DNA of 30,764 nt from positions 1 through 30,764 of the IMG/VR virus record IMGVR_UViG_3300014893_000002; one strand, written 5' to 3'. The first letter of the stretch is position 1; every line of letters starts with the position of its first letter. Under the pieces are notes generated by a model. That model saw only the letters and a program-made list of their open reading frames with translations. It was not told the origin of the DNA and did no database searches. This DNA is from a virus (taxonomy: Duplodnaviria > Heunggongvirae > Uroviricota > Caudoviricetes). The translations under genes and the position numbers were made by a program. Shown in pieces: positions 3,301 through 19,853 of this stretch.

Positions 3301-3602
3301 TTCAGACGGGCATTTACTGAATTCCACTCATCGGCGAGAGAAATAAGATGACCGGTAGCAAAAGCCCCGGCAAATGCCCCCGCCATGTTCAGTGCCGAAG
3401 ATTTAGCTGTATTTATCTGATCCGTCACTTCTGCCAGTGCACGCCGCATTTCACGGGATGCAGCAGCGGACTGTCGGCCTCCGTTCTGCATGGTACGGTA
3501 GTAATCCTGCCCCATACGCGAAGCCCGGGAGATCTCTGACTGGAATGACCGGGAATTTGCCGAGATTTTAATAATCAGTTCACGTAATGTCGCCACACTC
3601 AT
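357..3602 (-). CDS. tail tape measure protein
   Basis: 1081 aa ORF with a long coiled-coil and Gly/Ala-rich segments, positioned between the GT chaperone and gpM as in lambda-like tails. Confidence 0.9.
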   Translation of the reverse strand: MSVATLRELIIKISANSRSFQSEISRASRMGQDYYRTMQNGGRQSAAASREMRRALAEVTDQINTAKSSALNMAGAFAGAFATGHLISLADEWNSVNARLKQASQSSDDFQSSQRELMAISQRTGTAFSDNASLFARSAASMREYGYSSEEVLKVTEAISTGLKLSGASTAEASSVITQFSQALAQGVLRGEEFNSVNENGDRVIRALAAGMGVARKDLKAMADNGKLTADKVVPALISQLGALRDEYAAMPDTVSSSATKVENAFMAWVGGANEASGVTKTLSGVLNGIAGNIDTVATAAGALVAVGVARYFGNMASSAGSATAGLITAARNEVALAEVQLRGTQIATARARAAVYRAQQAVVAARGTERQAAAEAKLTAAQVSLTRNIAARTAAQTTLNNVTSVGSRLLSGALGLVGGVPGLVMLGAAAWYTMYQNQEQARESARQYAATIDEIRQKTSAMSLPEASDNEEKTRQALKEQNRLIDEQKSKIKSLQEKIAGYQYVLANPGWTTDNGFMINHMTSVKTVTEGLAEATNQLAVEQSRLTQMQGKAQSIQDVLAGLEERRVALIRQQAAEQNKAYQSLLIMNGQHTEFNRLLGLGNELLQQRQGLVNVPLRLPQATLDDKQQTALNNSERELALSRLKGEARERARLGYAADDLGFVGEAYQTARLNYINNSLDAWRNNQANKPKAHKKTEAEKIEDTYKQLIKQQKEQIALAGQNTELAKMKYQVSQGELSTLSEAQKKTLLQNAALIDQKKIREQLAAYESSLADSNASVRASNEAQLLGYGEGSRMRERLQEMWSIRQEFEQKNNELLRQYQAGEIEEALWKQEKSLNEKYLEERLSDQQDYYAKADALRSNWNAGLQEGLTNWADSATDYASQAADAVVSTMDGLVSNISDALAGNVVDWRNWGSSILQEVSKILMNAAIVNGLKSLSKSMSGAGGWLGTVGDWLSGAVANAKGGVYTSANLSAYSNTIVDTPTYFAFAKGAGLMGEAGPEAIMPLTRAADGSLGVRAIGNVNGGGGFVYSPVYHISIQNQGSNGEIDARSARGLVDLIDSRVVSIMQSSRRDGGLCSA

Positions 3603-3611
3603 TCTCCGGAC

Positions 3612-3634
3612 GAAAAAAAACCGCCGAAGCGGTT
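3612..3634 (-). terminator. intrinsic terminator or attenuator between GT chaperone and tape measure gene
   Basis: Minus strand reads AACCGC-TTCG-GCGGTT followed by a run of 8 U; perfect 6 bp stem with a TTCG tetraloop. Confidence 0.55.
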
Positions 3635-3642
3635 ATGTTGAC

Positions 3643-3933
3643 TCACTGAGACACTATTAAAAGCGCGTTTTCCAGTCCAGCAAATGGATCTGATACGCCT
3701 TCTGTCTGCTCCTTCTCCCACTGAAGAAGCGCATCATTCAGTGGCACTTTGACCCCCTGCGCACCGTAAACAGCTGAAACAATCTGGGCAGCCCGGATAT
3801 CAGCCCGTTCGTCCCCCAGCGTGCTGAACCTGTCAAATTCTGCCCACATCATGATTTCTGATGCGGACATTTCCCGGCGTAACTCTGACAATGTGCGCCC
3901 CATCCTGAGCGCCAGCATCATCAGAAAACGCAT
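3643..3933 (-). CDS. tail assembly chaperone GT, -1 frameshift extension (gpT-like segment)
   Basis: ORF in the -1 frame relative to G, entered from the slippery heptamer at 3948-3954; fused reading gives ..GEVKKKVALPGMRFLMM.. and it ends just upstream of the tape measure gene. Confidence 0.7.
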   Translation of the reverse strand: MRFLMMLALRMGRTLSELRREMSASEIMMWAEFDRFSTLGDERADIRAAQIVSAVYGAQGVKVPLNDALLQWEKEQTEGVSDPFAGLENALLIVSQ

Positions 3934-3944
3934 CCCCGGAAGCG

Positions 3945-4331
3945 CTACTTTTTTTTAACCTCGCCGGCATCACTGATTAGTTCCAGAGACTGCCGAAGAA
4001 GCCGCGCATGCACCGGGCCATACACGGCAATCACCTGTTCACGATCATCCTCTGAAAATACAGGTTGCAGTCCGGTATCACACAGAACATCGATGAACAG
4101 TTCAACATCCGCTTCCAGATTTCGGCGGGCGCGCTCCGCAACGGATAACGGTGTCTCATCATCTTTTGCTTTAACGATCTCCTGCCAGCGCAACCAGGCT
4201 TCTGCAGAAGGTTCCCGTAATACAACCGTTGCCCCTTCCCATTCAGGCACATCAACAGTTTTATGGCGAAACCCCGACATCGTTGCCAGTGCCAGATTAC
4301 GGATATTTTTAGTCATCACATCTATCCTCAT
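3945..4331 (-). CDS. tail assembly chaperone (gpG-like)
   Basis: 128 aa acidic ORF between major tail and tape measure genes, ending in the slippery site. An alternative start at ATG 4316 has a better RBS (GAGGAT). Confidence 0.75.
   Translation of the reverse strand: MRIDVMTKNIRNLALATMSGFRHKTVDVPEWEGATVVLREPSAEAWLRWQEIVKAKDDETPLSVAERARRNLEADVELFIDVLCDTGLQPVFSEDDREQVIAVYGPVHARLLRQSLELISDAGEVKKK
3948..3954 (-). other. programmed -1 ribosomal frameshift slippery site (A AAA AAG)
   Basis: Minus strand reads GTT AAA AAA AAG TAG at the 3' end of G; a -1 slip places the ribosome in the 3643-3933 frame (frame arithmetic checked). Confidence 0.7.
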
Positions 4332-5035
4332 TAACTGACGGTAACAGTGCAGGAAGTAGAGGTCACTTTGTTAACCGGGCTTGCTGAATCAGAAATCTCG
4401 CAGGTATATGCACCCGCATCACCGGATACTGCCGATGCCTTACTGAACGTTGCCGCCGTCTGTCCGGAAACAGGAGAACCACCTTTCTTCCAGACATAAG
4501 AATAAGGCGGCACACCACCCGCAGCCTCAACCGCCATTTCAAGTTTCGATCCGGAAGCAACCCGCAGCGTGCTTTTTAAATCGACCTTCACTTTCAGCGG
4601 CTCTGTCGTCAGCACAGGTTTACCTTTCAGGCGCAGAGAAAACGTTGCAGCCACAACACCATTGGTTCCTGCAGACCAGGTATGCTGACGCACCTCTGCC
4701 ATAAAGGTAAATCCGTTGCCTGACGGAAAAATAACTTTAAAGCCATACGTGGTGTCATTGTCATAGGCACTGCGCAACGCGTTCTGGGCAGCATTGAGGT
4801 AAAAGTTGCCTGACATGGAAATCTCTGAAGCAGCACCAAGGCCGTTAATATTTTCCTGCTCAACAGAACACAGCGTGGTGACATCAATATCCTGCTTTTG
4901 TCCTGCAGTAAACTGCACCTCTTTGATTGTACAGCTCAGGCCAAGATAGCTGGCAGAATCCAGGGTTTCTGCTGTTACCGGTGCAGACGAAATCATAATT
5001 TTCGTCAGTTGCGAACGCTCAAAATTAGAGGACAT
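4331..5035 (-). CDS. major tail protein with C-terminal Ig-like domain
   Basis: Position upstream of G/GT; C-terminal region resembles a Big_2-type Ig-like domain (..GGVPPYSYVWKKGG..AGAYTCE..). Start at ATG 5035 with AGGAG RBS; stop overlaps the G start (TAATG). Confidence 0.8.
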   Translation of the reverse strand: MSSNFERSQLTKIMISSAPVTAETLDSASYLGLSCTIKEVQFTAGQKQDIDVTTLCSVEQENINGLGAASEISMSGNFYLNAAQNALRSAYDNDTTYGFKVIFPSGNGFTFMAEVRQHTWSAGTNGVVAATFSLRLKGKPVLTTEPLKVKVDLKSTLRVASGSKLEMAVEAAGGVPPYSYVWKKGGSPVSGQTAATFSKASAVSGDAGAYTCEISDSASPVNKVTSTSCTVTVS

Positions 5036-5094
5036 ACTCGTCTCCTGAAAATAAAAAACCCGCCAGCGGCGGGTGGGTAAAATCATTAACGACC

Positions 5095-5439
5095 TCAGGC
5101 TATTACCTGAAATTCAAGCGTGGCTCTGCTCAGACGGGAGTCAGGATCATACCCCTGCGTTTTAGAAATAACGGAGGGTGCCAGTTTCCTTACTGCATCA
5201 AGCGCCTGCTCACGAATATCATCTGCGTCATCAGGTACTGTCGCCCAGACATCGATCTGCACGGTAATTCTGGATTCAGCCTGCCCATCAAGCACATCAG
5301 ATGCCGTGTCAGACACCACAGAAAACACCAGCCACGGCGGAGATACCGCAGGCTTTCCCTCCGTCAGCGGGACCACATAAGGATAAACCTGTCCTCCGGC
5401 CAGCTGAGACAACAGGGAATACAGTGTGCCCTCCCTCAT
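5095..5439 (-). CDS. tail component, DUF3168-like (putative tail completion or terminator protein)
   Basis: 114 aa ORF between the gp10-like gene and the major tail gene; family assignment is from position and general resemblance only. Confidence 0.5.
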   Translation of the reverse strand: MREGTLYSLLSQLAGGQVYPYVVPLTEGKPAVSPPWLVFSVVSDTASDVLDGQAESRITVQIDVWATVPDDADDIREQALDAVRKLAPSVISKTQGYDPDSRLSRATLEFQVIA

Positions 5440-5885
5440 TTACTTAAGACCTCATCAATAGCCTGATTCATTCGCTGTATGGCAACCTGCGCCGCCAGCT
5501 CCTCTGTCGTATCGAAAGCCGGGCGAATGAATGGATGCGCGGGCATGTTTATCGTTCCCAGCTCCACAAAGCGCCAGTAAAATGCATTTCGGGGATCGCT
5601 GGCTTTCATGCTGTTATCACTGTTTCCGGTTCGCAGGTTCCGTCCGCGAATGTGGACACCCGAGATAATTTCCCCCCGACGCTTTGAACGCTGAGTGAGA
5701 ACAACCACATTTTTCTTCAGTTTCCCGGTTCGCTCCGGCGCACGTTCAACAACTGCATCCCGCATAACTTCAGCACCGGCACGGGTGGCATCGCGCAGAA
5801 CCTTATTGTTTTCTGCCCTGCTGAGCGTCTCCAAATCCCGTGCAATATCCGCCAGGCCGGAAAAATCAAGACTGAAATCCATCAC
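5436..5885 (-). CDS. HK97 gp10 family phage protein
   Basis: 149 aa with the characteristic ..AFYWRFVELGT..P..PFIRPA.. segment; translationally coupled to both neighbours by overlapping start and stop codons. Confidence 0.65.
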   Translation of the reverse strand: MMDFSLDFSGLADIARDLETLSRAENNKVLRDATRAGAEVMRDAVVERAPERTGKLKKNVVVLTQRSKRRGEIISGVHIRGRNLRTGNSDNSMKASDPRNAFYWRFVELGTINMPAHPFIRPAFDTTEELAAQVAIQRMNQAIDEVLSK

Positions 5886-6220
5886 ACATTCCCCTTCAGG
5901 CTGCAGAGTATTTCAAGCCGGGTAGCGCGCGCATCCGGTATTGGTGGACCTTCTATACCCAGAATGGCCCCTTTAAATGCACCGGTCAGCACTTTCAGAC
6001 GTGAAGTCGCTGTCACATCGCGCCGGAATCTCATCCAGACTCTGACCGTAGCCTGAGCGGTTTCTGCTCCGCCTGAGATTATCTCCCTCCCGCTGATACC
6101 CTTAACTTCTGCCCATACGGTAGCTCCCTCCGTCACCGTCTCCACCGGATGCCCTGACGGAGAGCGGGCGGTGGTGACATTCAGAATAATTACGCGATCA
6201 CGTAATCTGCCCGCCTGCAT
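5882..6220 (-). CDS. head-tail adaptor / head closure protein (SPP1 gp16-like)
   Basis: 112 aa with RDRV.I, VWAEVKGISGRE, TIRVW and SRLKVLTGAF motifs; close paralog of the ORF at 14097-14435. Confidence 0.75.
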   Translation of the reverse strand: MQAGRLRDRVIILNVTTARSPSGHPVETVTEGATVWAEVKGISGREIISGGAETAQATVRVWMRFRRDVTATSRLKVLTGAFKGAILGIEGPPIPDARATRLEILCSLKGNV

Positions 6221-6228
6221 GTCTCCTC

Positions 6229-6546
6229 CTACAAAGGAATAAAACGATAAGGCTCCAGCAGAGAAGAAAAACCAAACGGGACTGGTGCCTTGCTGACATC
6301 TGAGGAATTTTCCCGGTTTTCGTACCAGTGCCCGACCAGCAACATGAGCGCCAGCAAAACATCATCAGCTATAAGCACCCCTTCAGGATCACCTTCCGGC
6401 ACCGTCTCCTCATAAAGCTTACGGTTGATAAAATTTTCTGCCTTGCGGCAGGCAGCCCGGAAATACAGCATCAGTAACTCATCATCAGTTGCATCATCTG
6501 TATCAATACGGCACTGCGCCCTGAGTTTTTCCACTATTGCTGCCAT
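6229..6546 (-). CDS. head-tail connector protein (gp6-like)
   Basis: About 105 aa starting MAAIVEKLRAQCRID..; gp6-like pattern, directly downstream of the major capsid gene. The track ORF extends upstream to 6726 and overlaps the capsid gene, which is unlikely. Confidence 0.65.
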   Translation of the reverse strand: MAAIVEKLRAQCRIDTDDATDDELLMLYFRAACRKAENFINRKLYEETVPEGDPEGVLIADDVLLALMLLVGHWYENRENSSDVSKAPVPFGFSSLLEPYRFIPL

Positions 6547-6580
6547 CAGAAACTCCTGCCCGCAACACTGTGCGGGCATA

Positions 6581-6603
6581 AAAAAACCGCGTCGGCGCGG
6601 TCT
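6581..6603 (-). terminator. intrinsic terminator downstream of major capsid gene 1
   Basis: Minus strand reads ACCGCG-CCGA-CGCGGT followed by a run of 7 U. Confidence 0.6.
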
Positions 6604-6622
6604 GTAACTGAACAACGAGTGG

Positions 6623-7840
6623 TTATTTGCCAGTGAGCGCCTTGATGGCTGCCACATCTTCCAGCACACAGTCAAAACGATGGAAAGCCAGAAATGCCAC
6701 CTGATCAAACTCAGCATAACGCTCAACCAGACGTTTCAGTTCCATATAAGTAACGCGGCGAATGATAAAGCGGTTGAAATCCCCCAGGAAAATGAATTTT
6801 TTTCCGGTACCAATCCCGTCAATAGCCTGATCAATAACATAAGGGATCCCCAGCACAGTAGCCGGCGTACCGCCTGCAATATCCGGCAGCCATAACGGGC
6901 GTTTCTGCCCATCCTCCATCTCTTCAATAGTCTGCAATGTGGCATCATTGAATGCCCAGCGGTATTTCGGCCCACCACGATATGCCGGATCAATGGCATG
7001 TTTCAGGGCATTCATTTCTTTCCAGGTGAAAGCGGCAGAGGCTGCAGTCTGGATGGTTCCCGTCACCGACGCTGCCAGCCCTTTTGGCTGTAACGGTGAT
7101 CCCGTTCCGGTCCCCTGAACCAGATATTTTGCCTCTCCACGACCAATACGCTGGGCAATACGGTTTGCCAGATAAGATTCAATATCCACCCCACTGTCCT
7201 GGAGCAGCTCATTGGACACACGAATTATTTTTGATGACAGCTTTTTAGCCCCCAGAATAGCGGTCCCGAACGTCACATCCTGTTCCGTTGCGGCTGTATT
7301 TTCCGCCAGCAGTTCGCCCTCTTCAGTCGTGCCATCAGACGTTGACCAGGTGATATCCTGCCCGGTTGATGTGGTCAGAAGTTGCGCCACACTGGCAATC
7401 CCGCCATAAGCCTTCATGGTGTCAATGATTTTGTTACGCATCTGCGTGGGCACCGTATATCCGCCCTGAGAATCCGTTGTTACACTCTGAGCCCGCAGTT
7501 CACGCATCAGATTACGCTCTTCAGCATTCAGTTCTGCAAATCCGGCACGCAGAAAACGGTTAAATGCCGCAGCGCGCTTCTCTTCCACCGCCTTTTTCCC
7601 GTTCTCCGCCTCATTATTCTGGCGCTCTTCCGGCCCGGACTCATCCACATATGCCTGATCCTGACGGCGCAACTCTTCTTCACGGGCGATTTGCTCATCC
7701 AGCGCATCCAGCTCAGCTTTCGCCCTGTTCCACTCTGCCCGTTGCTCATCAGTCCATGCGTTATCACCAATTTTTTCATGCAGTGCACGCATATCCTTTG
7801 CAATGGTGTTTCGTTTTTGCTTCATCTCATGAAGTTTCAT
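6623..7840 (-). CDS. major capsid protein, HK97 fold (head module 1)
   Basis: 405 aa with an N-terminal coiled-coil delta-like domain and a QGTGTGSPLQPKGL segment matching the HK97 NGDGTG..L.GL region. Confidence 0.9.
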   Translation of the reverse strand: MKLHEMKQKRNTIAKDMRALHEKIGDNAWTDEQRAEWNRAKAELDALDEQIAREEELRRQDQAYVDESGPEERQNNEAENGKKAVEEKRAAAFNRFLRAGFAELNAEERNLMRELRAQSVTTDSQGGYTVPTQMRNKIIDTMKAYGGIASVAQLLTTSTGQDITWSTSDGTTEEGELLAENTAATEQDVTFGTAILGAKKLSSKIIRVSNELLQDSGVDIESYLANRIAQRIGRGEAKYLVQGTGTGSPLQPKGLAASVTGTIQTAASAAFTWKEMNALKHAIDPAYRGGPKYRWAFNDATLQTIEEMEDGQKRPLWLPDIAGGTPATVLGIPYVIDQAIDGIGTGKKFIFLGDFNRFIIRRVTYMELKRLVERYAEFDQVAFLAFHRFDCVLEDVAAIKALTGK

Positions 7841-7854
7841 CGTCAGTAGTATCC

Positions 7855-8454
7855 TTATGCATTAAGAAGGGTCAAAAGACGCTCACGCGCCATTCGTTCG
7901 TTAACAGCTTTCTTCAGCGCACCACTCGCCCGCGCTTCCTGCCAGGCTTTCATTGAGCGGACACCAGAGTCTGCGTCCTGATAGGCCGGATATGTCACCG
8001 GGCTGACGTCATACAGACGAGAAATGCGCGTGATTTCCCGGATAACAATCCCCTCGTCGTCTTCATACCAGCTCTCTCCGTCACGGGCGACACGAAACGC
8101 GAACGAGGACTGATTAATGTCACCACGCAACATTGGAGACAGCACCAGGTCACAAATAGTCGGAGTATCCGGTGCAACAATGTCATAACGTAAACCGCGT
8201 TCATCCACCGACAATGACAACGTGCCGGCAGAACTTCGTCCGAGAATGAAATTAGGATCATGATTAAACAAGCCACGTACATCATCATTCAGTACATCAT
8301 CAAAAGCCCCCGGCTTGATGATTTCACGAAATCCCCACAGAGGTTCTGAACGACTGTTAAATACCGAGCCATACCCCAGAATGTGGGTCGGGGCATTATC
8401 ATATTGTTCCGCCCGCACCTCCCCGCTGTAACAGCGCGTTTCACGGTCATTCAT
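7855..8454 (-). CDS. prohead protease, HK97 gp4 family (head module 1)
   Basis: 199 aa with ..GYGSVFN.., ..KPGAFDD.. and ..PAY.. pattern typical of caudovirus prohead proteases; sits between portal and capsid genes. Confidence 0.85.
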   Translation of the reverse strand: MNDRETRCYSGEVRAEQYDNAPTHILGYGSVFNSRSEPLWGFREIIKPGAFDDVLNDDVRGLFNHDPNFILGRSSAGTLSLSVDERGLRYDIVAPDTPTICDLVLSPMLRGDINQSSFAFRVARDGESWYEDDEGIVIREITRISRLYDVSPVTYPAYQDADSGVRSMKAWQEARASGALKKAVNERMARERLLTLLNA

Positions 8455-9673
8455 CGTTCTTTTCCTCTTTGCCTTTCGTATCTTTAAAGTTATTCAACGG
8501 ATTTGCTGCATTTACGCTGACCAGCATTTCATCCAGACCGTCAACCGGGTTCATATCCTCAAATGCCCTGGCTTCATTCCGACTCATCCAGCCATCTGTA
8601 ATGGCAAAGTGATAGAACTGCGCACGCTCCTGTGGGGTCCCACGGAGCAACCCCGTGAGGTTGAAACGAACGTAATACCCGGCAGCCCGTTCTGTACGGG
8701 TAAACAGGCGACGGTTAAGCTCCTGCTCCCAGTTCGCAACCCAGGGCATCATCGTGTAGCGAACAAACTGAATCGCCTGCTGCGTAATATTCGAAAATGT
8801 GGCTTTTTCCAGGTCATTAATCATGTGCGCCGGGACATTAAAAATCCCGGCAATCATCGACCGGTTCAGCTTGGTCATATCAATGATCTGAGCATCCACC
8901 GGAGAAACTGTCAGAGCGCGGTAATCCAGTTGCGCAGGCAGCAACATGGTTTTATTTTCCTGGCTGCGAAGCGCTGTCACCGCCCGCTGCCACATATTTT
9001 TAAGCCTGCCCCAGCTTTGTTCGTTCAGTTCATTTTTCACAGAAATAATACCGGCAGGACGGGCATTACCGTTAAAAAAGGCGCTGGTATACTGCTGGCC
9101 ACTCATTCCCATACCAATGGTTTCAGCATGCTGCATGATCGGGCTCAGTCCCATTTTCTGATTGTTTCCCAGCGCCCTGATATGGATCATGTCGTCCGGA
9201 CTTACCGCAAATGCACCCTCTTCGTTATACACCCCGTAAGTATGACGCCCACCGGTGTTAAGTAACGTGGTTTCCCATGGCATACAGCATTCAAGGCTGG
9301 TAACCTCTCCACGACGATTACGTTTTACCCACGTATAACCATTGCCCCACCCCAGCACATGACGCTGCTTCAGTTCCCGCCACTTATAGCTGGTCTGCCA
9401 GGCATTAGGTTCATCATGAACGAGCCAGAACAACGGATGATCGCGTGCCGGCTGAACATGCTCATTCGTTTTTCGCATCACATGCAGGGGCATCTGAGCC
9501 ACACTGGATGAAATAACATAAATACAGGCATAGACAGCAGCCAGCTTCATGGATGTTTCCGGACTGACATACACATCCCGGGCAAAAATATTATCCGTCT
9601 CAGCGGCCTCTCCGGTTACCGGAACCGAGGGATTTTCCAGAGGCTCACTGCGAAACAGAGCATCAAGAAGCAT
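8447..9673 (-). CDS. portal protein, HK97 family (head module 1)
   Basis: 408 aa with typical portal C-terminal motifs (..AGIFNVP.., ..PWVANWEQELNRRL..); GAGGAG RBS 5 nt upstream of the ATG. Confidence 0.9.
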   Translation of the reverse strand: MLLDALFRSEPLENPSVPVTGEAAETDNIFARDVYVSPETSMKLAAVYACIYVISSSVAQMPLHVMRKTNEHVQPARDHPLFWLVHDEPNAWQTSYKWRELKQRHVLGWGNGYTWVKRNRRGEVTSLECCMPWETTLLNTGGRHTYGVYNEEGAFAVSPDDMIHIRALGNNQKMGLSPIMQHAETIGMGMSGQQYTSAFFNGNARPAGIISVKNELNEQSWGRLKNMWQRAVTALRSQENKTMLLPAQLDYRALTVSPVDAQIIDMTKLNRSMIAGIFNVPAHMINDLEKATFSNITQQAIQFVRYTMMPWVANWEQELNRRLFTRTERAAGYYVRFNLTGLLRGTPQERAQFYHFAITDGWMSRNEARAFEDMNPVDGLDEMLVSVNAANPLNNFKDTKGKEEKNDE

Positions 9674-9820
9674 GTTTTCTCCTCATGGACACCACCAGTG
9701 CATAAAGCAGCAACAAACAGCCCGACAGCATCAGAGACGCTGGCAGACCTGCATACAGATAAACGCCAGCAGTGAGCAAACCGAAACCGATCAGCCCGGT
9801 CATATCAGTAATAAGCTGTT

Positions 9821-10584
9821 TCACAGAATTAACAGGTCCTCATCAGGATCAAGCGTGGACAGAAAGTCATTCACGCCCCCTCCATTTACCAGAAAGCGGC
9901 TCATGGCTGTAAAAAGCGCAACAGGGCCGTCGATTTTGGCTTCCGGCGTGGATTTATTCGGGAAGATGTTGTCGTTTTTGTCCGGTTTTACAGTAACGTT
10001 AGACATCATCCAGTTCATGACCGGATGATTGCTGTGATGGAAACGCCCGGCATAAACCAGTGATTCCGTTTCCTTCATGGCCTCTGACAGATTGCGGACC
10101 GTCTGCGGAACCTCCACCAGCGGTATCCCTTCTTCAGCCAGTGCCAGGCTGAACTGCATTGCGCTCCACGGGTCAAATCCCAGTTCCCTGAGGTTTTCAC
10201 CGCCAATCCATTCCAGTAAGTCACTTTTTATCTGAGCATGATCGATAACATCACCATCCGTCAGGATGAGCTTATCCATCTCCGCCCACTTCCGGTAAAG
10301 TTCTGCCTGCTGCCGCGAGCATCGTTCCAGCCGTCCTTCCGGAAGCCAGAATTTAAAATCAGCATGAACATGTCCGTTATCGGTTCGCCAGAGTTTTGCC
10401 GCCGCACAGATATCAATCTTATGAGCAAGGTCGACGCCGACCCACATGGGATATGTTTTCAGCTCATGTTGTGGAGCAATGTATTCGCACTTCTCCCACT
10501 TAATCATATCCATCCAGGCAGATTCGGCAGTGACCCACACATTCATGTGTTTGGTAAGAATATTTCAAGTTTTTTAAAATCACC
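9821..10584 (-). pseudogene. terminase large subunit remnant (C-terminal nuclease-domain portion only)
   Basis: The 241 aa ORF aligns residue-by-residue to the C-terminal part of the intact TerL at 11074-12741, from about residue 330 to its end (e.g. LTKHMNVW vs LTKRFNIW, WVGVDLAHKIDI vs YAGLDLSSTSDI). No N-terminal ATPase domain; upstream frames are broken by stops and a frameshift, but weak homology can be followed to about 10584. Confidence 0.7.
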
Positions 10585-10615
10585 TGTATATCAATCATTT
10601 AACATGAAAAAACAG
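10585..10615 (+). other. candidate Mu-type terminal sequence (element end, putative transposase-binding site)
   Basis: TGTATATCAATCATTTAACATGAAAAAACAG begins with 5'-TG and resembles, from memory, the phage Mu left-end terminus (TGTATTGATTCACTTGAAGTACGAAAAAAAC). It lies exactly where TerL homology stops. Confidence 0.4.
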
Positions 10616-10838
10616 TCTTTATAAATCATCAAGCAATACACAGCGCAATACACGTATCTGTATTGTTTTAATGCTGATACACACCGTTTTTTTGATACAG
10701 TGATTCGACCTACCATCGCGAAGCATTTTTTATTTCTTGTGTGTAACAATCTGACGAGGTGAGCACTCAAAGAGATAAGAGGCAGTAGAAATTTCGATCC
10801 CCCCTGAATGCAATTTTTCGTATATATATACAAAACAG

Positions 10839-10865
10839 CGCGGGTTATGCGGGTTAGCGGGTTAT
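10839..10865 (+). repeat. three tandem 9 bp direct repeats (GCGGGTTAT, GCGGGTTAG, CGGGTTATC)
   Basis: Read directly from the sequence in an AT-rich non-coding region downstream of TerL. Confidence 0.8.
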
Positions 10866-10941
10866 CTTCGCGTGCTAAGTATTTTTTACTCTTTAATATC
10901 AATACGTTAAAAAACAACGTATTTAAATATCAGCCAGAGTG

Positions 10942-10994
10942 TAACCCGCAAGACATTCAAAATAACCCGCAAACACCCCTCAAAAAACCCGCAA
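10942..10994 (+). repeat. three copies of (T)AACCCGCAA at about 22 bp spacing, inverted relative to the GCGGGTTA repeats
   Basis: TAACCCGCAA at 10942 and 10964, AACCCGCAA at 10987; reverse complement of the GCGGGTTA unit about 80 bp upstream. Confidence 0.8.
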
Positions 10995-11073
10995 AAACAT
11001 CCCTGAAAGTGGGTGCCGGTAATACTGAAAATTTATTCCATTAAATGAGCATTGTCCTCTCTCATCCATTCCG

Positions 11074-12741
11074 TTACACACCATCAAACGCCGCAAGCCG
11101 CTCTTTGTGGCTGTCGCTCATATCAAATGCAAATTCCTCATGCTCTGCCTGGAATGTGCCAAACGCCATCAGCGCCGCAACGCTCGGGTCTATCTTGTTG
11201 GATGATTTTTTCTTGTTCGGCTTGATATTGGCGTTCGCGTCACTCTGCATCACAACATTACACATTGACCAGGCCAGCACCGGATCGCCACGATGCACAA
11301 TCACCTTCCGGTTAACAAAAACTTCGAACGATTTCGCCGCCGGACTGAAACGAAGGTATGTTTGCGGGAACGGCTCCACCTCAAATCCTGCCCCCTGTAG
11401 CTGCGTCCTCAGGTGCGTAGCGTTCCATGTATCGAAGCCCACCAGCCTGATATTGAAATTCTCTGCATCCGCCATGATGTCATCACGGATACGGTCATAA
11501 TCAATGCAGTCACCCGGTGTTGTGCGTATCCAGCCCGCCTTTACCCACTGGCGATAGATGGCGCGGTTTTTATTAGCGGGGTTCTGTAGCTGAAATTCCG
11601 GCAGATAGTGACGGGAAACCAGCATAATCTTTTTACCGACCGGAAAGGCATAGCACACGCTGGAAATATCGCTGGTTGATGATAAGTCCAGCCCTGCGTA
11701 GCACTCCTGCCCGTATAAATCCGCCTCCGCGAACGTTCCGGCGCACTCCGCCCATGCACCATTACCCATCCACGGCGTAGCCCCCTGACACCAGATATTG
11801 AATCGCTTGGTGAGCATTTCCACCCACTGCGACGGAATACCCCGCGCTTTCTGGATGGTTGAGGCCAGTTTTTCACGATCGACGGAAACATCGATATTGG
11901 GATTCGCCTTTATCCACATCGCCGGATCGTCAACCTCGCTTTCATCATCCAGCTCGTAAATCAGCACGAACATGGATTCGTTCACCTCTTCACCATCCAG
12001 TATCTGGCAGCAATAGTCGTAGTGTTGTTTACAGGCTGAAACAACGTTGCTCCCCGATGTGGTGATGGCAAATAATAACCCCTCCGGACGCGCCCCCATT
12101 CCCAGTTCAAGCGCGGAATAAACCCCGTTGTCAGGGTGCAGGTGATATTCATCCACAATGGCAAGACTCGGGTTCTTCCCCTCAATGGTTGCCGCTTTTG
12201 CTGCCAGTGGCTTTAACAGGCTGTTGGTTTTCGGGTGTATCACCTTGTTCGCCTGAATATTTACCCGCTTTCGTAACGGTCGGGATAAAAGGCACATCTG
12301 ACGCGCATCATCAAACACGATCCGCGCCTGATCACGACTCACGGCGGCGGTGTAAATATCCTGCTGCCCGTTTTCCATAACCAGAAACCAGTTAGCCAGG
12401 ATAGCGGCGACCGTGGATTTGGCATTTTTTCGCGGTACTTCAATGAATGCGCTGGTGTATTTGCGCCGTCCGGTGGCCTTAACCTTAAAGCCCAGGATGC
12501 ACGCAAAGGCGAACTGCTGCCACGGCTCCAGTTCAATGGGGCTACCGTGCATTGCGCCTTTTACGTGCGGGCACACCCTGGAAAAGGCAATAAACCGCTC
12601 CACGACCTCCGAATCGAACATATAAAGGGGGTTTTCAAGGTCAGAAAAATACCGTTTAACGGTCTGTTTCAGTCGTTTACAGGCCGTAATTTTGCCGTTT
12701 TTTACGCCTTCTGCGTACTCATGCCAGGCGGTCAAGCTCAT
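11074..12741 (-). CDS. terL: terminase large subunit (intact)
   Basis: 555 aa with an N-terminal ATPase region and a C-terminal nuclease-type region (..AGLDLSSTSDISS.., ..VGFDTWNA..); start overlaps the TerS 3' end. Confidence 0.9.
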   Translation of the reverse strand: MSLTAWHEYAEGVKNGKITACKRLKQTVKRYFSDLENPLYMFDSEVVERFIAFSRVCPHVKGAMHGSPIELEPWQQFAFACILGFKVKATGRRKYTSAFIEVPRKNAKSTVAAILANWFLVMENGQQDIYTAAVSRDQARIVFDDARQMCLLSRPLRKRVNIQANKVIHPKTNSLLKPLAAKAATIEGKNPSLAIVDEYHLHPDNGVYSALELGMGARPEGLLFAITTSGSNVVSACKQHYDYCCQILDGEEVNESMFVLIYELDDESEVDDPAMWIKANPNIDVSVDREKLASTIQKARGIPSQWVEMLTKRFNIWCQGATPWMGNGAWAECAGTFAEADLYGQECYAGLDLSSTSDISSVCYAFPVGKKIMLVSRHYLPEFQLQNPANKNRAIYRQWVKAGWIRTTPGDCIDYDRIRDDIMADAENFNIRLVGFDTWNATHLRTQLQGAGFEVEPFPQTYLRFSPAAKSFEVFVNRKVIVHRGDPVLAWSMCNVVMQSDANANIKPNKKKSSNKIDPSVAALMAFGTFQAEHEEFAFDMSDSHKERLAAFDGV

Positions 12742-13804: not shown

Positions 13805-14100
13805 CAGTACACCCCCACATCACGATAAACCGACCAGAGCGCGGAAATCGTCAGGGGAATTTCTTTTGTATCTGTATCGCCAAGCGTTGTCCGGTACTCG
13901 TACAGTTGCGAGATGTACATCAGGCAGCCAATTTTTATTGCAGGGGTAAATTCCAGGCCATCATCAAAACGCCTACCAATATGTTTCTGACATACCTCCA
14001 GCGCCGCGCTTATGTATGCCTGAATCAGTGTGTCTTCTGTGTTACCGTCTATGCGGCAGTGAAGTTTGGCTTCTTCCAGGGTTATTTTTTCTGCTGTCAT
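13804..14100 (-). CDS. head-tail connector protein (gp6-like), head module 2
   Basis: 98 aa; paralog of 6229-6546 (..L.E.K.H.RID..D.LI..YI.AA..). ATGA overlap with the HNH start. Confidence 0.65.
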   Translation of the reverse strand: MTAEKITLEEAKLHCRIDGNTEDTLIQAYISAALEVCQKHIGRRFDDGLEFTPAIKIGCLMYISQLYEYRTTLGDTDTKEIPLTISALWSVYRDVGVY

Positions 14101-14435
14101 TTTTCTGTACCCACCTTTGCCAGAATTTCCAGCCGGGTTCTTTTCGCATCAGGTAAGGGGATCCCGATGATATTAAGCGTGCTCCCGGCAAAAGCACCGG
14201 TAAGCACTTTCAGTCGACTGGCGGCGGATATGTCGCCACGATAGCGAACCCATACCCGAATCGTTGCAGGTGCGGTTTCTGCGCCTGCGGTCAGTAATTC
14301 CCGTCCGCTGATCCCCTTGACCTCTGCCCAGATGGTTTCCCCTTCCGTCCATATCTGCCGGATCGCTCCTGACGGCAGGCGCTGCGTGATAAATGTCATA
14401 ATCGTCACCCGGTCCCGCATATTTCCGGCTATCAT
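14097..14435 (-). CDS. head-tail adaptor / head closure protein (SPP1 gp16-like), head module 2
   Basis: 112 aa; shares VWAEVKGISGRE, SRLKVLTGAF and TRLEIL with the copy at 5882-6220, roughly 60 percent identity by eye. Confidence 0.75.
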   Translation of the reverse strand: MIAGNMRDRVTIMTFITQRLPSGAIRQIWTEGETIWAEVKGISGRELLTAGAETAPATIRVWVRYRGDISAASRLKVLTGAFAGSTLNIIGIPLPDAKRTRLEILAKVGTEK

Positions 14436-16271: not shown

Positions 16272-17441
16272 CTAGCCAGCTTTCATTTCCAGAATTTTGA
16301 TGGCGTTTGAATCCACCACACCACCGCCCAGATATTTATCCGTGTGGACCTTGTAGAATCCGGGTTCAGTAATGTTGTCCGGTCGGGTGCGAATACCCGT
16401 TACATGATCAACGATGAAATAACCACGACTGAAATCACCAACCGCGAGCGGTGCTTTTCCTGCGCCGATGTCCGGCATGGACTCCAGGCAGTAAACAGGA
16501 CGACCAAGCAACATATCCGGCGCACCTTCTTTAAGGCTGTCGCGCCAGATATAATCGCCGTTCTCGTTTTTCAGCTTCTGTAGTGTCCCTGCCGTGCCCG
16601 AGTTCATCACCCAGACGGCATTTTTGCGGTATTTCGCTTTCAGCTTGTAGAGAATGTCGATCAGTTCGTCCGCTGTAATGGCGGTTCCACTTGCCGCTAC
16701 CATTTTTTCAATGGTGCCAAAAGCGCGGGTTTTGTCACTGGTCGCTGCACGGGTGTAAGCCATGAAGCCTTTCGGCTTGCCGTTACCGTCGCCATTAACA
16801 AAATCATCCTCTTCGGTGCTGGCGAACGTGTCGGCAATTTCGGAGGATAACCAGCCCAGAATATCCACCTCTGAAAAATCCAGAATTTCCTGCGTGGTTT
16901 TCGGGTAGGCGTAGATAGGATTCAACTTGATGGTTACGCGTTCAATTTTCGGGGTGTTGGTTTCGCTGCGCGCGCTGCCTTCTGTGCCTCGTCCTACAGT
17001 TGCGCCGCCAGTGGAAACCAGTTTCTGAAACTCATTTGATTTTGCGGTCTTCACGGTCGCAATCACGCGCATAACACTGTCATCCTGTAGCTGGCGCATG
17101 ACTTCGCGATCAAGCTCAGGAATTACGGTATATCCGCCATCCCTGCCGCTGTCAGTGCTGGTGGACAGTGATCGCACATCTCCGGTTACGATGTAGTTAC
17201 GCAATTCATCAGATGATAATTTCCGGATACCCGTTCCTGGCTTGCTGCGTTCTTCATCATCCACAGATTCGAGGCGGGAGATTTCTGTGTCGAGGGAATC
17301 GGCTTTTGCACGCAGTTCATCAAACTGTTTGCCCTCGTCATCGTTCAGGCTGCGGTTTTCACTGTCGGCTTTTTCCAGCAGAGATCGCATCTGGTTTTTC
17401 AGGGCGGTTTTTTGCTGGCGGAGTTCGATTAATTTCTTCAT
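16272..17441 (-). CDS. major capsid protein, HK97 fold (head module 2)
   Basis: 389 aa with an N-terminal coiled-coil delta-like domain and the ..DFVNGDGNGKPKGF.. segment matching the HK97 NGDGTG motif. Confidence 0.85.
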   Translation of the reverse strand: MKKLIELRQQKTALKNQMRSLLEKADSENRSLNDDEGKQFDELRAKADSLDTEISRLESVDDEERSKPGTGIRKLSSDELRNYIVTGDVRSLSTSTDSGRDGGYTVIPELDREVMRQLQDDSVMRVIATVKTAKSNEFQKLVSTGGATVGRGTEGSARSETNTPKIERVTIKLNPIYAYPKTTQEILDFSEVDILGWLSSEIADTFASTEEDDFVNGDGNGKPKGFMAYTRAATSDKTRAFGTIEKMVAASGTAITADELIDILYKLKAKYRKNAVWVMNSGTAGTLQKLKNENGDYIWRDSLKEGAPDMLLGRPVYCLESMPDIGAGKAPLAVGDFSRGYFIVDHVTGIRTRPDNITEPGFYKVHTDKYLGGGVVDSNAIKILEMKAG

Positions 17442-17727: not shown

Positions 17728-18234
17728 ATGAATTTAAGCGCAATGGTATACCCTGATACTTTCATAATTAATGGCGAATCATTCAGAGGTAAAAGAAACG
17801 CAAAAGAAAACAAGGTATTAATTCCATATACAAATGAACCGGAAGTAACTATTGGTCAACACATTATCCAGCGTGTCGGTAAAAACGAGATAAATCTAAA
17901 AATTATAGATATGAAGTTGCTTCCCAATGGAACCCTCAGACAGGGAACCAATCATCCAAATATGTTGACTCTCTATATTGAAAATATCACGGGAAATGAA
18001 CATATGACGCCAACTAAAAGTAATACATTTAACATTGGTTCAATTAGTGGTGATCAAGTGCAGATAGGTGAGCATAACCATATGCTGGTAAACATCAGCA
18101 TCACTGAACTGGTTGAAAAAGTCGCTAAATCGGGGGATGTACAAGCCAAATCAGTATTAAAGCAGTTACTGGAAAACAGTACCGTTGCCAGCATTGTTGG
18201 GGCTGGCGCAAGTGCCCTAATAGGCTTACTGTAA
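17728..18234 (+). CDS. hypothetical protein with C-terminal hydrophobic tail, AT-rich cargo gene
   Basis: 168 aa ORF on the opposite strand to the phage operons, with AAAGGA RBS, markedly lower GC than its surroundings, its own terminator, and a C-terminus ..STVASIVGAGASALIGLL. No recognisable family. Confidence 0.6.
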   Translation: MNLSAMVYPDTFIINGESFRGKRNAKENKVLIPYTNEPEVTIGQHIIQRVGKNEINLKIIDMKLLPNGTLRQGTNHPNMLTLYIENITGNEHMTPTKSNTFNIGSISGDQVQIGEHNHMLVNISITELVEKVAKSGDVQAKSVLKQLLENSTVASIVGAGASALIGLL

Positions 18235-18271
18235 AAAAATGGCCTGGATTTTACCAGGCCTTTATTATTTT
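18233..18271. terminator. bidirectional intrinsic terminator
   Basis: GGCCTGG-ATTTTA-CCAGGCC hairpin flanked by an A-run upstream and a T-run downstream; sits between convergent genes. Confidence 0.65.
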
Positions 18272-18518
18272 ACCGTTTCACGGGATCGCGCATTCTGCGC
18301 CTTATTTTCCACAGATATTCGATCATCGCTTCCACCTGTTCACGGTTGGTTGCGAAAATTTCCCCGGTCAGTGAGCTGCGCAGAAAATCATGATGATCCA
18401 CAACAAACAACGCATCGGAAGAAAGCAGACGGCGATATTTTTTTGCTGTCGTGGTTTCCAGATCATCAAAACCATGAAACTTTTTATGTTGCTGAACTTC
18501 TTCAAATGTCACAGGCAT
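18270..18518 (-). CDS. hypothetical protein
   Basis: 82 aa from ATG 18518 with a strong AGGAGG RBS; no recognisable family. Confidence 0.5.
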   Translation of the reverse strand: MPVTFEEVQQHKKFHGFDDLETTTAKKYRRLLSSDALFVVDHHDFLRSSLTGEIFATNREQVEAMIEYLWKIRRRMRDPVKR

Positions 18519-18767: not shown

Positions 18768-18943
18768 AACATCAGCCCAACGTGCCGCTGCTCTCCGGTA
18801 CAGCTGAAGGGACGTAAGATAAATGAATGGTGATTCGTGAGATAATTTCGAACGGGAGTGGGTTAAAACGAATGCTACCGAATAATTTTATGAAATTGTT
18901 TTGCTGTATGTGAAACGGTAGCAGTTCACAAAAAACAGAGAAT

Positions 18944-19785: not shown

Positions 19786-19817
19786 ATTTCCTCCGGTGAT
19801 ATGTTTTTCTGCCAGAA

Positions 19818-19853
19818 TAAAAAAAGCGCAACAGGTTATCCATTGCGCTTTTC
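19818..19853. terminator. bidirectional intrinsic terminator
   Basis: AAAAGCGCAA, an 11 nt loop, then TTGCGCTTTT; perfect 10 bp complement flanked by A and T runs. Confidence 0.5.

What the first reader, a model, noticed from the sequence alone, without database searches (positions are those of the whole stretch)
10621..11073. AT-rich intergenic region downstream of TerL with two families of short repeats
Seen in sequence: about 490 bp of AT-rich non-coding DNA contains CAATACA twice direct (10634, 10646) and once inverted as TGTATTG (10659), GATACA twice (10675, 10693), three tandem GCGGGTTA units (10839-10865), and three inverted (T)AACCCGCAA copies at about 22 bp spacing (10942-10994). Inference: the end-proximal CAATACA/TGTATTG set could be transposase-binding sites; the GCGGGTTA/AACCCGC array has the geometry of iterons, a terminase recognition site or a regulator-binding array.
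Basis: partly seen in the sequence, partly recalled or inferred. Interest (0 to 1): 0.5.

Follow-up and report, generated by a model that had tools for sequence, protein, structure and literature searches.

The report
Satellite end: integrase sites plus origin-like repeats
This AT-rich stretch is the outer end of a phage satellite (a capsid-forming, helper-embedded PICI) inserted in its helper prophage's terminase gene; one repeat family is the already published attachment-site motif, and the other is a second, displaced copy of the satellite's replication-origin repeats.

Summary
The repeats are real and at the stated coordinates. The window is a nested set of E. coli elements. An HK97/lambda-like prophage (1-10550) has its TerL gene split by a satellite (about 10551 onward), and that satellite is itself interrupted at 18804/18805 by a Mu-like prophage.

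The finding region (10551-11073) is the satellite's attR-side end.

Family 1, GCAATACA x2 with a 12-bp period, is the published HE-PICI "doubled motif" TGTATTGC..TGTGTATTGC. It lies 79 bp from the 7-bp crossover core TTGGTAA (10551-10557). A second copy sits in front of int in E. coli 042. It is most likely a pair of integrase arm-type sites, not transposase sites.

Family 2, GCGGGTTA x3 tandem, a 77-bp AT-rich spacer and TAACCCGCAA x3 at 21-22 bp, has the PICI/SaPI origin layout. It uses the same iteron as the array next to the DUF927 (SaPI-Rep-like) primase-helicase gene of sister elements.

Ten of 11 sampled DUF927 islands carry both arrays, either adjacent or 8-11 kb apart. Rosenbergiella and Proteus satellites show the same pairing with different iterons. 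The closest analogue is phage P4 ori/crr.

The terminase-site and transposase readings are rejected. Function as a second origin or crr-like site is inferred, not shown. Three islands with other Rep types carry it as an orphan.

The parts
9821..10546 (-). C-terminal fragment (241 aa) of the helper prophage's large terminase, cut off by the satellite insertion
   Evidence: Pfam TerL_nuclease positions 64-283 only. It is 96-99% identical to intact TerL genes of E. coli phages up to window 10564. It is annotated as 'missing N-terminus' in E. coli 042.
10551..10564 (.). att identity block. TTGGTAA (10551-10557) is the 7-bp segment shared by attB, attL and attR and is the likely crossover core.
   Evidence: Alignment of the intact TerL of phage PhiR49_2 with both junctions in E. 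coli 042 and with the window junction.
10589..10601 (+). IHF-consensus-like site (TATCAATCATTTA) between the core and the arm doublet
   Evidence: Pattern WATCAANNNNTTR. Binding is inferred only.
10632..10654 (-). HE-PICI attP 'doubled motif' (cgTGTATTGCgctgTGTATTGCt). These are probable integrase arm-type sites with a 12-bp period.
   Evidence: Matches the published tgTGTATTGCantgTGTATTGCa motif and its distance of 81+/-2 bp from the attP centre (79 bp measured here). A second co-oriented copy lies about 20 bp upstream of the likely int start in 042. The same motif is found at both arm positions in 120 IMG/VR loci.
10659..10699 (.). One inverted TGTATTG half-site and two TGATACA copies; significance not established
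   Evidence: Present only in this lineage. Other HE-PICI distal arms with the same doubled motif lack them. TGATACA is not locally significant.
10709..10839 (.). Conserved ~130-bp module of unknown role that always accompanies the distal iteron array. It ends in a (TA)n tract at 10822-10833.
   Evidence: Alignment of nine distal copies from islands with six different integration sites. No Rfam match. No convincing conserved RNA fold. No consensus promoter or terminator.
10840..10864 (+). Three tandem iterons GCGGGTTA (periods of 9 and 8 bp)
   Evidence: Invariant in seven homologous arrays.
10865..10941 (.). 77-bp AT-rich spacer (70% A+T) with an IHF-like site at 10897-10909 and a short inverted repeat at 10896-10928. 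It is the candidate unwinding region.
   Evidence: The IHF consensus is kept in 6 of 7 homologous arrays although the spacer diverges.
10942..10994 (-). Three iterons TTGCGGGTTA spaced 21 and 22 bp apart, about two helical turns. The third copy (10985) carries a T-to-A change unique to this window.
   Evidence: In register with the three 21-bp-spaced iterons of the primase-adjacent origin of E. coli 042.
11074..12741 (-). The satellite's own intact large terminase, the last gene of the satellite before its end
   Evidence: Pfam TerL_ATPase plus TerL_nuclease. Same position in 042, CEA106S and other cf-PICIs.

Best explanation
The region is the attR-proximal 520 bp of a capsid-forming, helper-embedded PICI satellite. 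A P4-type tyrosine integrase inserted the satellite into the TerL gene of an HK97/lambda-like helper prophage. The region holds two functionally separate repeat systems.

(1) Next to the 7-bp crossover core TTGGTAA lies the HE-PICI doubled motif, TGTATTGC x2 with a 12-bp period. Together with a second copy just upstream of int, it most likely binds the N-terminal arm domains of the integrase tetramer. This would assemble the attP/attR intasome, probably helped by an IHF bend at 10589. The motif and its geometry are shown. The binding protein is inferred.

(2) Further in lies an origin-type iteron array: three tandem GCGGGTTA, a 77-bp AT-rich IHF-site-containing spacer, and three inverted copies on one helical face. 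It uses the same iteron and the same architecture, in inverted orientation, as the array immediately downstream of the satellite's DUF927 primase-helicase gene. That protein is a homologue of the SaPI Rep self-loading helicase.

I propose that the initiator binds both arrays. The distal array would then act as a second cis-replication element, either a second origin or a crr-like partner of the primase-adjacent one, as in phage P4, where alpha protein binds identical iterons at ori and at crr. Shared iterons, conservation and covariation are shown. Initiator binding and a role in replication are inferred.
For: Junction and element identity:
- Homology to intact phage TerL genes stops at 10564.
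- E. coli 042 has the identical junction. The other TerL half lies 15 kb away, next to a tyrosine integrase. Between them lie regulators, a DUF927 primase, SSB, PerC, capsid, protease, portal, connector, HNH, TerS and TerL.
- HE-PICIs at the site A:Terminase_1:245/246 are described in PMC10111431.

Doubled motif:
- Its sequence and distance match the published motif.
- The second copy is present in 042.
- The 042 integrase has Arm-DNA-bind_3 plus Phage_integrase domains.
- The P4 RefSeq annotation shows the same layout: 12-bp-period arm doublets on both sides of the core, one just upstream of int, with crr next to the other.

Iterons:
- 5 exact GCGGGTTA against 0.79 expected.
- 042 has a second array of the same 8-mer directly after the DUF927 stop codon. 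Its iterons align in register with the window array while the spacers are unrelated.
- In EcCIEDL933, CH4784 and MS20653 both arrays lie side by side after the primase gene. The EDL933 copy is 79% identical to the window array including the spacer.
- Iteron columns are invariant in 42 of 44 cases against 41 of 89 for spacer columns (Fisher p = 3.7e-9).
- 10 of 11 sampled DUF927 islands have both arrays. The exception has lost its distal end to IS1.
- The primase-adjacent array occurs in 252 E. coli genomes, and in the listed hits it lies at the 3' end of, or directly beside, a DUF927 gene.

Covariation in other genera:
- Rosenbergiella has AAGTGCGGCA arrays after its rep gene, and an inverted copy after terL that looks roughly 90% identical by eye.
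- Proteus has GGTGCACAG/CTGTTCACC arrays next to a P4-alpha homologue (40% identity) and again after terL.

Initiator and origin type:
- DUF927 protein matches the PDB entries 8tch 'Pathogenicity island protein' (E = 4.5e-14) and 5dgk 'Active helicase' (E = 0.0022). Reading these as staphylococcal SaPI-Rep/Cch-type helicases is from my own knowledge.
Against: - The window does not contain the primase gene or the primase-adjacent array, because the Mu-like insertion pushes them beyond the window. The pairing is inferred from near-identical relatives.
- Three of 11 sampled islands with a distal GCGGGTTA array have a different Rep allele and different primase-adjacent iterons: CEA106S has TGTTCACC-type, BH100 has GTAGACAG-type, and PEC148 has a RepA-type Rep. 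The distal array can therefore persist without its presumed cognate initiator. That fits a recombination relic or a function independent of Rep.
- Most TerL relatives in other genera have no second array, so it is not a general requirement of cf-PICIs.
- There is no experimental evidence for binding or for origin firing.
- The doubled motif could be bound by AlpA rather than the integrase; its discoverers left this open.
Confidence: 0.68

Rival explanations
1. The distal GCGGGTTA array is a non-functional or dispensable relic. It would be a half of a composite origin, as seen intact in EcCIEDL933, that was separated from the primase when late-gene or cargo modules were inserted. It would now simply travel with a conserved terminal module during PICI mosaic recombination.
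For: - Both arrays are adjacent in EDL933, CH4784 and MS20653.
- Orphan distal arrays occur in islands with unrelated Rep alleles.
- The array always comes with the same ~130-bp flanking module.
Against: - The iterons are invariant while the spacers diverge by 15-30% across copies, including the orphan copies.
- 10 of 11 DUF927 islands keep the array.
- Independent lineages with other iterons also keep a matching second array after terL.
Confidence: 0.17
2. The array is bound by some other protein common to E. coli PICIs, or by a host factor. It would act in regulation, for example by controlling int expression from the circular form, where this region lies directly upstream of int. Another possibility is that it couples excision to replication, rather than acting in replication initiation.
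For: - The array persists with several Rep alleles and is always near the attR end when it is not next to the primase.
- All E. coli PICI Rep alleles share a ~135-aa N-terminal domain that could be the common binder.
- In the circular form the region lies between terL and int.
Against: - The same iteron forms the canonical origin next to the DUF927 gene.
- In EDL933-type islands the array lies 5 kb from int and not near att.
- It is absent from 25 of 35 distinct HE-PICI distal arms that share the integrase clade.
- No consensus promoter was found.
Confidence: 0.1
3. The array is a terminase recognition site, a cosB-like set of TerS binding sites for the satellite's own P27-type TerS, HNH and TerL.
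For: - It lies immediately downstream of terL.
- Three sites, a bend site and three inverted sites resemble lambda cosB R sites with the I1 IHF site.
Against: - The array is present in classical PICIs without this terminase module: BH100, ExPEC XM, MB06102, PSS-15 and CH4784.
- In the prototype cf-PICI EcCIEDL933 it is not near terL.
- It is absent after terL in most of 80 TerL relatives at 68-92% identity.
- In CH4784 an exact lambda cosN lies 2.7 kb away, not adjacent.
Confidence: 0.03
4. The CAATACA/TGTATTG set consists of transposase binding sites at the end of a Mu-like transposable element.
For: A DDE transposase (rve) and an AAA+ partner are encoded in the window at 23973-26919.
Against: - Those genes belong to a PhiKM-like transposable prophage whose end is at 18804/18805. 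It starts with TG, and the same end abuts unrelated genes in other genomes.
- E. coli 042 has the identical finding region but no such prophage.
- The motif equals the published HE-PICI attP motif.
Confidence: 0.01

Closest known systems
HE-PICI (helper-embedded PICI) attP doubled motif, Mageeney et al. 2023, NAR Genom Bioinform (PMC10111431)
   Same: - The same sequence: TGTATTGC twice with a 12-bp period.
- The same distance from the crossover region.
- A second co-oriented copy in front of int.
[quoted passage not shown] The terminase site A:Terminase_1:245/246 is listed there.
   Different: Nothing essential. This lineage has one extra inverted half-site and two TGATACA copies that other HE-PICIs lack. 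The satellite is also of the capsid-forming type and carries a full head and packaging module.
[quoted passage not shown] 2018, PMC6092414; SaPI origin from my own knowledge, Ubeda et al. 2007)
   Same: - Two sets of iterons in opposite orientation around an AT-rich spacer.
- The identical 8-mer to the array next to the DUF927/SaPI-Rep-like gene in sister islands.
- 79% identity to part of the EcCIEDL933 primase-adjacent origin.
   Different: This copy lies about 8 kb from the primase gene, at the far end of the island next to attR. It is an additional array, not the only one. Its orientation is inverted relative to the primase-adjacent array.
Phage P4 ori/crr two-site replicon (annotation of NC_001609; literature from my own knowledge: Flensburg and Calendar 1987, Ziegelin and Lanka 1995)
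   Same: - A satellite with one initiator and two separated arrays of the same iteron.
- One array lies just beyond the integrase arm doublet of attP: 117 bp away in P4 and 186 bp here.
- The overall order is last gene, iteron array, arm doublet, core, arm doublet, int.
- Proteus relatives use a true alpha homologue with TGTTCACC-like iterons in both arrays.
   Different: The initiator here is DUF927/SaPI-Rep-like, not alpha. The iteron sequence differs. In P4 the att-proximal array (crr) is also the one next to the initiator gene, whereas here cargo genes separate them. A cis requirement has not been tested.
Lambda cosB (R3-I1-R2-R1)
   Same: Short repeated sites in both orientations around an IHF-type bend site, close to terminase genes.
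   Different: The array is downstream of terL rather than upstream of terS, has no adjacent nicking site, and does not co-occur with the terminase type.

Membership tests
HE-PICI attP/attR arm (doubled motif) | Motif tgTGTATTGCantgTGTATTGCa | tested here: met
   Window 10632-10654 on the minus strand reads cgTGTATTGCgctgTGTATTGCt.
HE-PICI attP/attR arm (doubled motif) | One copy 81+/-2 bp from the attP centre | tested here: met
   The motif edge at 10633 lies 79 bp from the centre (10554) of the TTGGTAA core at 10551-10557.
HE-PICI attP/attR arm (doubled motif) | Second co-oriented copy 132+/-2 bp on the int side | tested here: inconclusive
   That end is outside the window. In the near-identical E. 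coli 042 island the copy is at L001 35245-35265, 134-136 bp from the core centre and about 20 bp upstream of the likely int start.
HE-PICI attP/attR arm (doubled motif) | [quoted passage not shown] | tested here: met
   TerL is split. The C-terminal fragment at 9821-10546 and all satellite genes are on the minus strand.
PICI/SaPI-type replication origin | [quoted passage not shown] | tested here: met
   Three plus three GCGGGTTA copies around a 77-bp spacer of 70% A+T.
PICI/SaPI-type replication origin | Located immediately downstream of the pri-rep gene | tested here: not met
   This copy follows terL. The primase-adjacent array is a separate copy in 042 (L001 28604-28731), about 8 kb away.
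PICI/SaPI-type replication origin | Iterons match those next to the cognate initiator gene | tested here: met
   The same 8-mer occurs in both arrays in 10 of 11 DUF927 islands. It is not met in 3 islands with other Rep alleles.
PICI/SaPI-type replication origin | Supports initiator-dependent replication | not testable with these tools
   This needs plasmid replication assays or binding assays.
P4 crr-like cis replication region | Second array of the origin's iterons, kilobases away on the same replicon | tested here: met
   042, ExPEC XM, MB06102, 23CRST027, WP8, PEC178 and PSS-15 have the arrays 8-11 kb apart.
P4 crr-like cis replication region | Alpha-type initiator and TGTTCACC type I iterons | tested here: not met
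   The initiator in sister islands is DUF927 and the iteron is GCGGGTTA. Both features are met only in the Proteus relatives.
P4 crr-like cis replication region | Required in cis for replication | not testable with these tools
   A genetic test is needed.
Terminase recognition site (cos/cosB) | Co-occurs with the terminase type and lies next to the cleavage site | tested here: not met
   The array is found in PICIs without this terminase, is absent after terL in most relatives, and is not next to a cosN-like sequence.
Mu-type transposon end | Sites at the terminus of the transposable element | tested here: not met
   The Mu-like end is at 18804/18805. 042 has the finding region without the transposable prophage.

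The most novel reading that the evidence does not exclude
PICI satellites whose initiator is the DUF927/SaPI-Rep-like helicase may use a bipartite replicon. Two iteron arrays would both be needed. They can sit side by side, or 8-11 kb apart with one parked next to attP/attR. This would be functionally analogous to P4 ori/crr but evolved with an unrelated initiator, and it recurs with other iterons in Rosenbergiella and Proteus cf-PICIs. The att-proximal array might be the true unwinding origin, since it has a (TA)n tract, an AT-rich spacer and an IHF site. In a helper-embedded island it could also fire in situ into the helper's morphogenesis genes.
Probability: 0.35. Interest if true: 0.55.

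Novelty: new variant of a known kind. Interest (0 to 1): 0.4.

Why it matters
PICI and cf-PICI replication is currently described with a single origin downstream of pri-rep. A conserved second iteron array would suggest a P4-like two-site control of satellite replication. Two observations point that way: it is kept in 10 of 11 DUF927-type islands, and it is mirrored in other genera with different iterons. The idea can be tested directly with existing EcCI plasmid and transfer assays. The orphan arrays in islands with other Rep alleles also give a marker for module exchange among PICIs. The other half of the finding, the CAATACA doublet, is already published. The transposase idea came from a nested, unrelated Mu-like prophage.

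Tried and rejected
- Rfam at gathering threshold on the whole window, and at E<=1 on 10450-11150, gave no match. ARAGORN found no tRNA or tmRNA.
- The consensus promoter/terminator scan of 10400-11200 gave nothing above shuffles.
- The small ORFs 10591-10917 (minus strand) and 10808-11044 (plus strand) have no Pfam hit. Indels of 2 and 3 nt in relatives break their frames, so I rejected them as genes.
- RNAalifold on the conserved 130-bp module, both strands, gave a covariation term near 0 and no convincing structure.
- The cos-site hypothesis was rejected. The cf-PICI papers do not locate cos.
- The integrase-arm hypothesis for the GCGGGTTA array was rejected. The array occurs with at least six different att sites and is absent from most HE-PICI arms.
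- A full-text search for the iteron sequence returned only unrelated primer hits.
- No supplementary tables of the cf-PICI preprint are held. The P4 primary papers are not held, so I used the P4 RefSeq annotation instead.
- The first 8-mer screen of 80 TerL relatives showed that most have no array after terL.

Full report
**Observation.**
- GCAATACAC lies at 10633 and 10645, with a 12-bp period.
- TGTATTG lies at 10659.
- TGATACA lies at 10675 and 10693.
- GCGGGTTA lies at 10840, 10849 and 10857.
- TAACCCGCAA lies at 10942 and 10963, and AAACCCGCAA at 10985, with 21- and 22-bp spacing.

GCGGGTTA occurs five times in the window, all in this region, against 0.79 expected; 0 of 100 shuffles reached five. 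CAATACA is not enriched window-wide (4 against 4.06 expected), but three of the four copies lie within 32 bp. The TGATACA pair is not distinguishable from chance. The segment 10565-11073 is 63% A+T against 49% for the window.

**Context: three nested elements.** The ORF to the right (11074-12741, minus strand) is a complete large terminase. The ORF to the left (9821-10546, minus strand) is a second terminase that lacks its N-terminal 340 residues and is only 29% identical to the first.

Intact TerL genes of E. coli siphophages match the window at 96-99% identity, but only up to 10564. In E. coli 042 the same junction (98% identity over 10400-11200) is the right end of a 15-kb island. The left end of that island abuts the missing N-terminal TerL half.

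The 042 island runs in this order: tyrosine integrase, HTH regulators, BRO, Icd-like protein, DUF4222, DUF927 primase-helicase, SSB, PerC, major capsid, protease, portal, connector, HNH, TerS, TerL. That is the gene set of a capsid-forming PICI (cf-PICI; preprint 10.1101/2022.09.08.507074).

Aligning an intact TerL (phage PhiR49_2) with both junctions gives an identity block TTGGTAA(A/G)AA(A/T)AT. Its 7-bp segment TTGGTAA (window 10551-10557) is shared by all att sites.

The window matches the 042 locus only up to 18804. From 18805 onward it is a PhiKM-like transposable prophage. This carries an rve transposase at 25150-26919 and an AAA+ partner at 23973-25166. Its end starts with TG and abuts unrelated chromosomal genes in other genomes.

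The order is therefore: helper prophage, then satellite inside its TerL gene, then Mu-like prophage inside the satellite. By coordinate mapping onto 042, the Mu-like insertion point falls in the 5' end of the PerC-family gene. The finding region is the satellite's attR-side end, 8 kb from the transposable element.

**Repeat family 1 (CAATACA).** Mageeney et al. 2023 (PMC10111431) described helper-embedded PICIs, whose integrase clade targets prophage late genes. The terminase site A:Terminase_1:245/246 is among their sites, including a 16-kb E. coli example. They report an attP "doubled motif", tgTGTATTGCantgTGTATTGCa. One copy lies 81+/-2 bp from the attP centre. A co-oriented copy lies 132+/-2 bp on the other side.

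The minus strand of window 10632-10654 reads cgTGTATTGCgctgTGTATTGCt, 79 bp from the centre of TTGGTAA. In 042 the second copy is at L001 35245-35265, 134-136 bp from the core. It lies about 20 bp upstream of an ATG that opens MALNKLSDKKLR.

The same N-terminus follows the motif in 11 of 63 int-proximal occurrences in IMG/VR. The annotated int start in 042 is therefore probably 37 codons too long. From that ATG the protein has Arm-DNA-bind_3 plus Phage_integrase domains.

The P4 RefSeq record annotates the same geometry. Twelve-bp-period "attP arm sequence repeat" doublets lie on both sides of the core, and one of them is 16 bp upstream of the int start.

Family 1 is therefore a known motif, and integrase arm-type sites are the best reading. 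Its discoverers left AlpA open as an alternative binder. An IHF-consensus site at 10589 lies between the core and the doublet. The extra inverted half-site and the TGATACA pair are absent from other HE-PICI distal arms, so I do not claim them as functional.

**Repeat family 2 (GCGGGTTA).** In 042 the same 8-mer forms a second array directly after the stop codon of the DUF927 gene (L001 28604-28731). That is the canonical PICI origin position. [quoted passage not shown]

Reverse-complemented, the window array has the same build as the 042 array:
- Three TTGCGGGTTA copies are spaced 21-22 bp apart, in register with the three in 042.
- An AT-rich spacer follows.
- Tandem TAACCCGC copies come last.
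- The sequence between the iterons is unrelated.

In the prototype cf-PICI EcCIEDL933, and in CH4784 and MS20653, both arrays lie side by side after the primase gene. The EDL933 copy is 79% identical to the window array, spacer included. EDL933 has no array after its terL.

Across seven homologous copies, 42 of 44 iteron columns are invariant against 41 of 89 spacer columns (Fisher p = 3.7e-9). The IHF-like site in the spacer (10897) is kept in six of the seven.

**Association with the initiator.** The primase-adjacent array occurs in 252 E. coli genomes; in the listed hits it lies at the 3' end of, or directly beside, a DUF927 gene. The distal-type array occurs in 356 genomes.

Of 11 DUF927 islands examined:
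- Seven have the two arrays 8-11 kb apart: 042, ExPEC XM, MB06102, 23CRST027, WP8, PEC178 and PSS-15.
- Three have them adjacent: EDL933, CH4784 and MS20653.
- One, STEC388, has lost its distal end to IS1.

The DUF927 protein matches PDB 8tch "Pathogenicity island protein" (E = 4.5e-14) and 5dgk "Active helicase" (E = 0.0022). From my own knowledge these are the staphylococcal SaPI Rep/Cch self-loading helicases, which recognise iteron origins.

Among 80 TerL relatives from other genera, most have no second array. Two lineages do, and each uses its own iteron:
- Rosenbergiella has AAGTGCGGCA arrays after its AAA_25 rep gene. An inverted copy after terL looks roughly 90% identical by eye.
- Proteus has GGTGCACAG/CTGTTCACC arrays after a P4-alpha homologue (40% identity over 775 aa) and again after terL.

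This covariation of the distal array with the origin iteron is the strongest argument that the initiator is the binder.

**Counter-evidence.** Three islands carry an intact distal GCGGGTTA array but a different Rep allele with different primase-adjacent iterons:
- CEA106S has a D5_N/Pox_D5 Rep with GGTGAACAGT iterons, which contain the P4 type I sequence.
- BH100 has a D5_N Rep with GTAGACAG iterons.
- PEC148 has an AAA_25 RepA-type Rep.

The array therefore survives module exchange. This fits recent recombination, or a function that does not depend on the cis-encoded Rep. I keep both as rivals.

All E. coli Rep alleles share a ~135-aa N-terminal domain. I did not follow this up.

The distal array always travels with a conserved ~130-bp module (window 10709-10839), for which I found no RNA family, no fold and no promoter.

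**Rejected readings.**
- Terminase site. The array is present in classical PICIs without the P27-TerS/HNH/TerL module. It is absent after terL in EDL933 and in most relatives. It is not next to a cosN-like sequence.
- Integrase or Xis sites. The array occurs with at least six att sites and is absent from 25 of 35 distinct HE-PICI distal arms.
- Transposase sites. The element-end argument above excludes them.
- Small ORFs. They have no family match, and indels in relatives break their frames.

**Mechanism proposed.** In the excised circle the order on the coding strand is:
- terL;
- three phased iterons;
- AT-rich spacer with an IHF site;
- three tandem iterons and a (TA)n tract;
- the 130-bp module;
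- the arm doublet;
- an IHF site;
- the core;
- the second arm doublet;
- int.

This is the P4 order (alpha, crr, arm doublet, core, arm doublet, int), with cargo genes inserted between the initiator gene and the array.

I propose two things. The integrase arm domains bridge the two doublets to the core. The Rep helicase binds the distal array as well as the primase-adjacent one, so that the distal array serves as a second origin or a crr-like partner.

- Shown: sequence identity of the iterons, their architecture, their conservation and covariation, the element borders, and identity with the published motif.
- Inferred: which proteins bind, and any effect on replication.

In this particular genome the Mu-like insertion has probably crippled the satellite. 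The one iteron change unique to the window (10985, T to A) may reflect that.

**Verdict.** Family 1 is already known. Family 2 is an origin-type array in a non-canonical, displaced and duplicated arrangement. To my knowledge, and in the papers searched, this arrangement has not been described for PICIs. I rate it a new variant of a known kind, of moderate interest.

Noticed in passing
window 18805-30764: A Mu-like transposable prophage is inserted into the satellite. It is 94.8% identical to Escherichia phage PhiKM over 68% of this stretch, with an rve transposase at 25150-26919 and an AAA+ partner at 23973-25166. By coordinate mapping onto the 042 locus, the insertion point falls inside the 5' end of the PerC-family regulator gene. 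The insertion separates the satellite's head and packaging module from its replication and integration modules. The end starts with TG, and the same end abuts unrelated genes in other E. coli genomes.
   Followed up: partly
window 9821-10546 and 1-9673: The helper prophage (HK97-type portal, protease and capsid with lambda-type tail genes) has its large terminase gene split by the satellite. It cannot package DNA unless the satellite excises precisely. The same arrangement occurs in at least 34 complete E. coli genomes.
   Followed up: yes
window 10709-10839: A conserved ~130-bp non-coding module always lies between the distal iteron array and the island end. This holds in nine islands with six different integration sites. 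It contains an invariant TGAATGCAATTTTTCG and a (TA)n tract. It has no Rfam match, no convincing fold and no consensus promoter, and its function is unknown.
   Followed up: partly
window 10985: The sixth iteron reads AAACCCGCAA here but TAACCCGCAA in the four other distal copies that retain a sixth iteron (the two primase-adjacent copies lack it). This may reflect relaxed selection in a satellite already broken by the Mu-like insertion.
   Followed up: no
L002 (E. coli CEA106S) 18140-18292 and 26320-26560; L086 (BH100) 12041-12193 and 17019-17245; L088 (PEC148) 14044-14194: Islands with non-DUF927 Rep alleles keep a perfect GCGGGTTA distal array. In CEA106S and BH100 the primase-adjacent origin uses other iterons: GGTGAACAGT, which contains the P4 type I sequence, and GTAGACAG. 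These look like orphan arrays left by module exchange.
   Followed up: partly
L001 30380-30874, L084 18995-19489, L002 27893-28387, L086 18519-19013, L088 24478-24972: All E. coli PICI Rep alleles (DUF927, D5_N/Pox_D5, AAA_25) share a homologous ~135-aa N-terminal domain starting MKLAPNVK. It is 40-65% identical to the 042 copy and matches no Pfam family. Its variants do not track the iteron type.
   Followed up: no
L001 (E. coli 042) 35225-35338: The RefSeq integrase CDS (445 aa) probably starts 37 codons too early. The likely start, MALNKLSDKKLR, lies about 20 bp downstream of the doubled motif, as in 11 IMG/VR HE-PICI loci.
   Followed up: partly
L005 (Rosenbergiella nectarea) 3880-4075 and 11700-11900: The whole ~190-bp origin next to the rep gene is present again after terL as an inverted copy that looks roughly 90% identical by eye, 7.6 kb away. 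Repeats this long could recombine and invert the segment between them.
   Followed up: partly
L084 (E. coli EDL933, EcCIEDL933) 17020-17333: The origin region of the prototype cf-PICI is composite. Two iteron/AT-rich/iteron units in opposite orientation lie back to back, giving 11 GCGGGTTA copies in 314 bp.
   Followed up: partly
L071, L073, L078, L081, L033 (Pasteurellaceae, Gilliamella, Haemophilus, Xenorhabdus relatives): Other short repeats occur in two clusters 9-16 kb apart. One example is ATGTTATA x4 directly upstream of the int start plus x2 at the far end in L078. They look like lineage-specific arm-type site pairs at both island ends.
   Followed up: no
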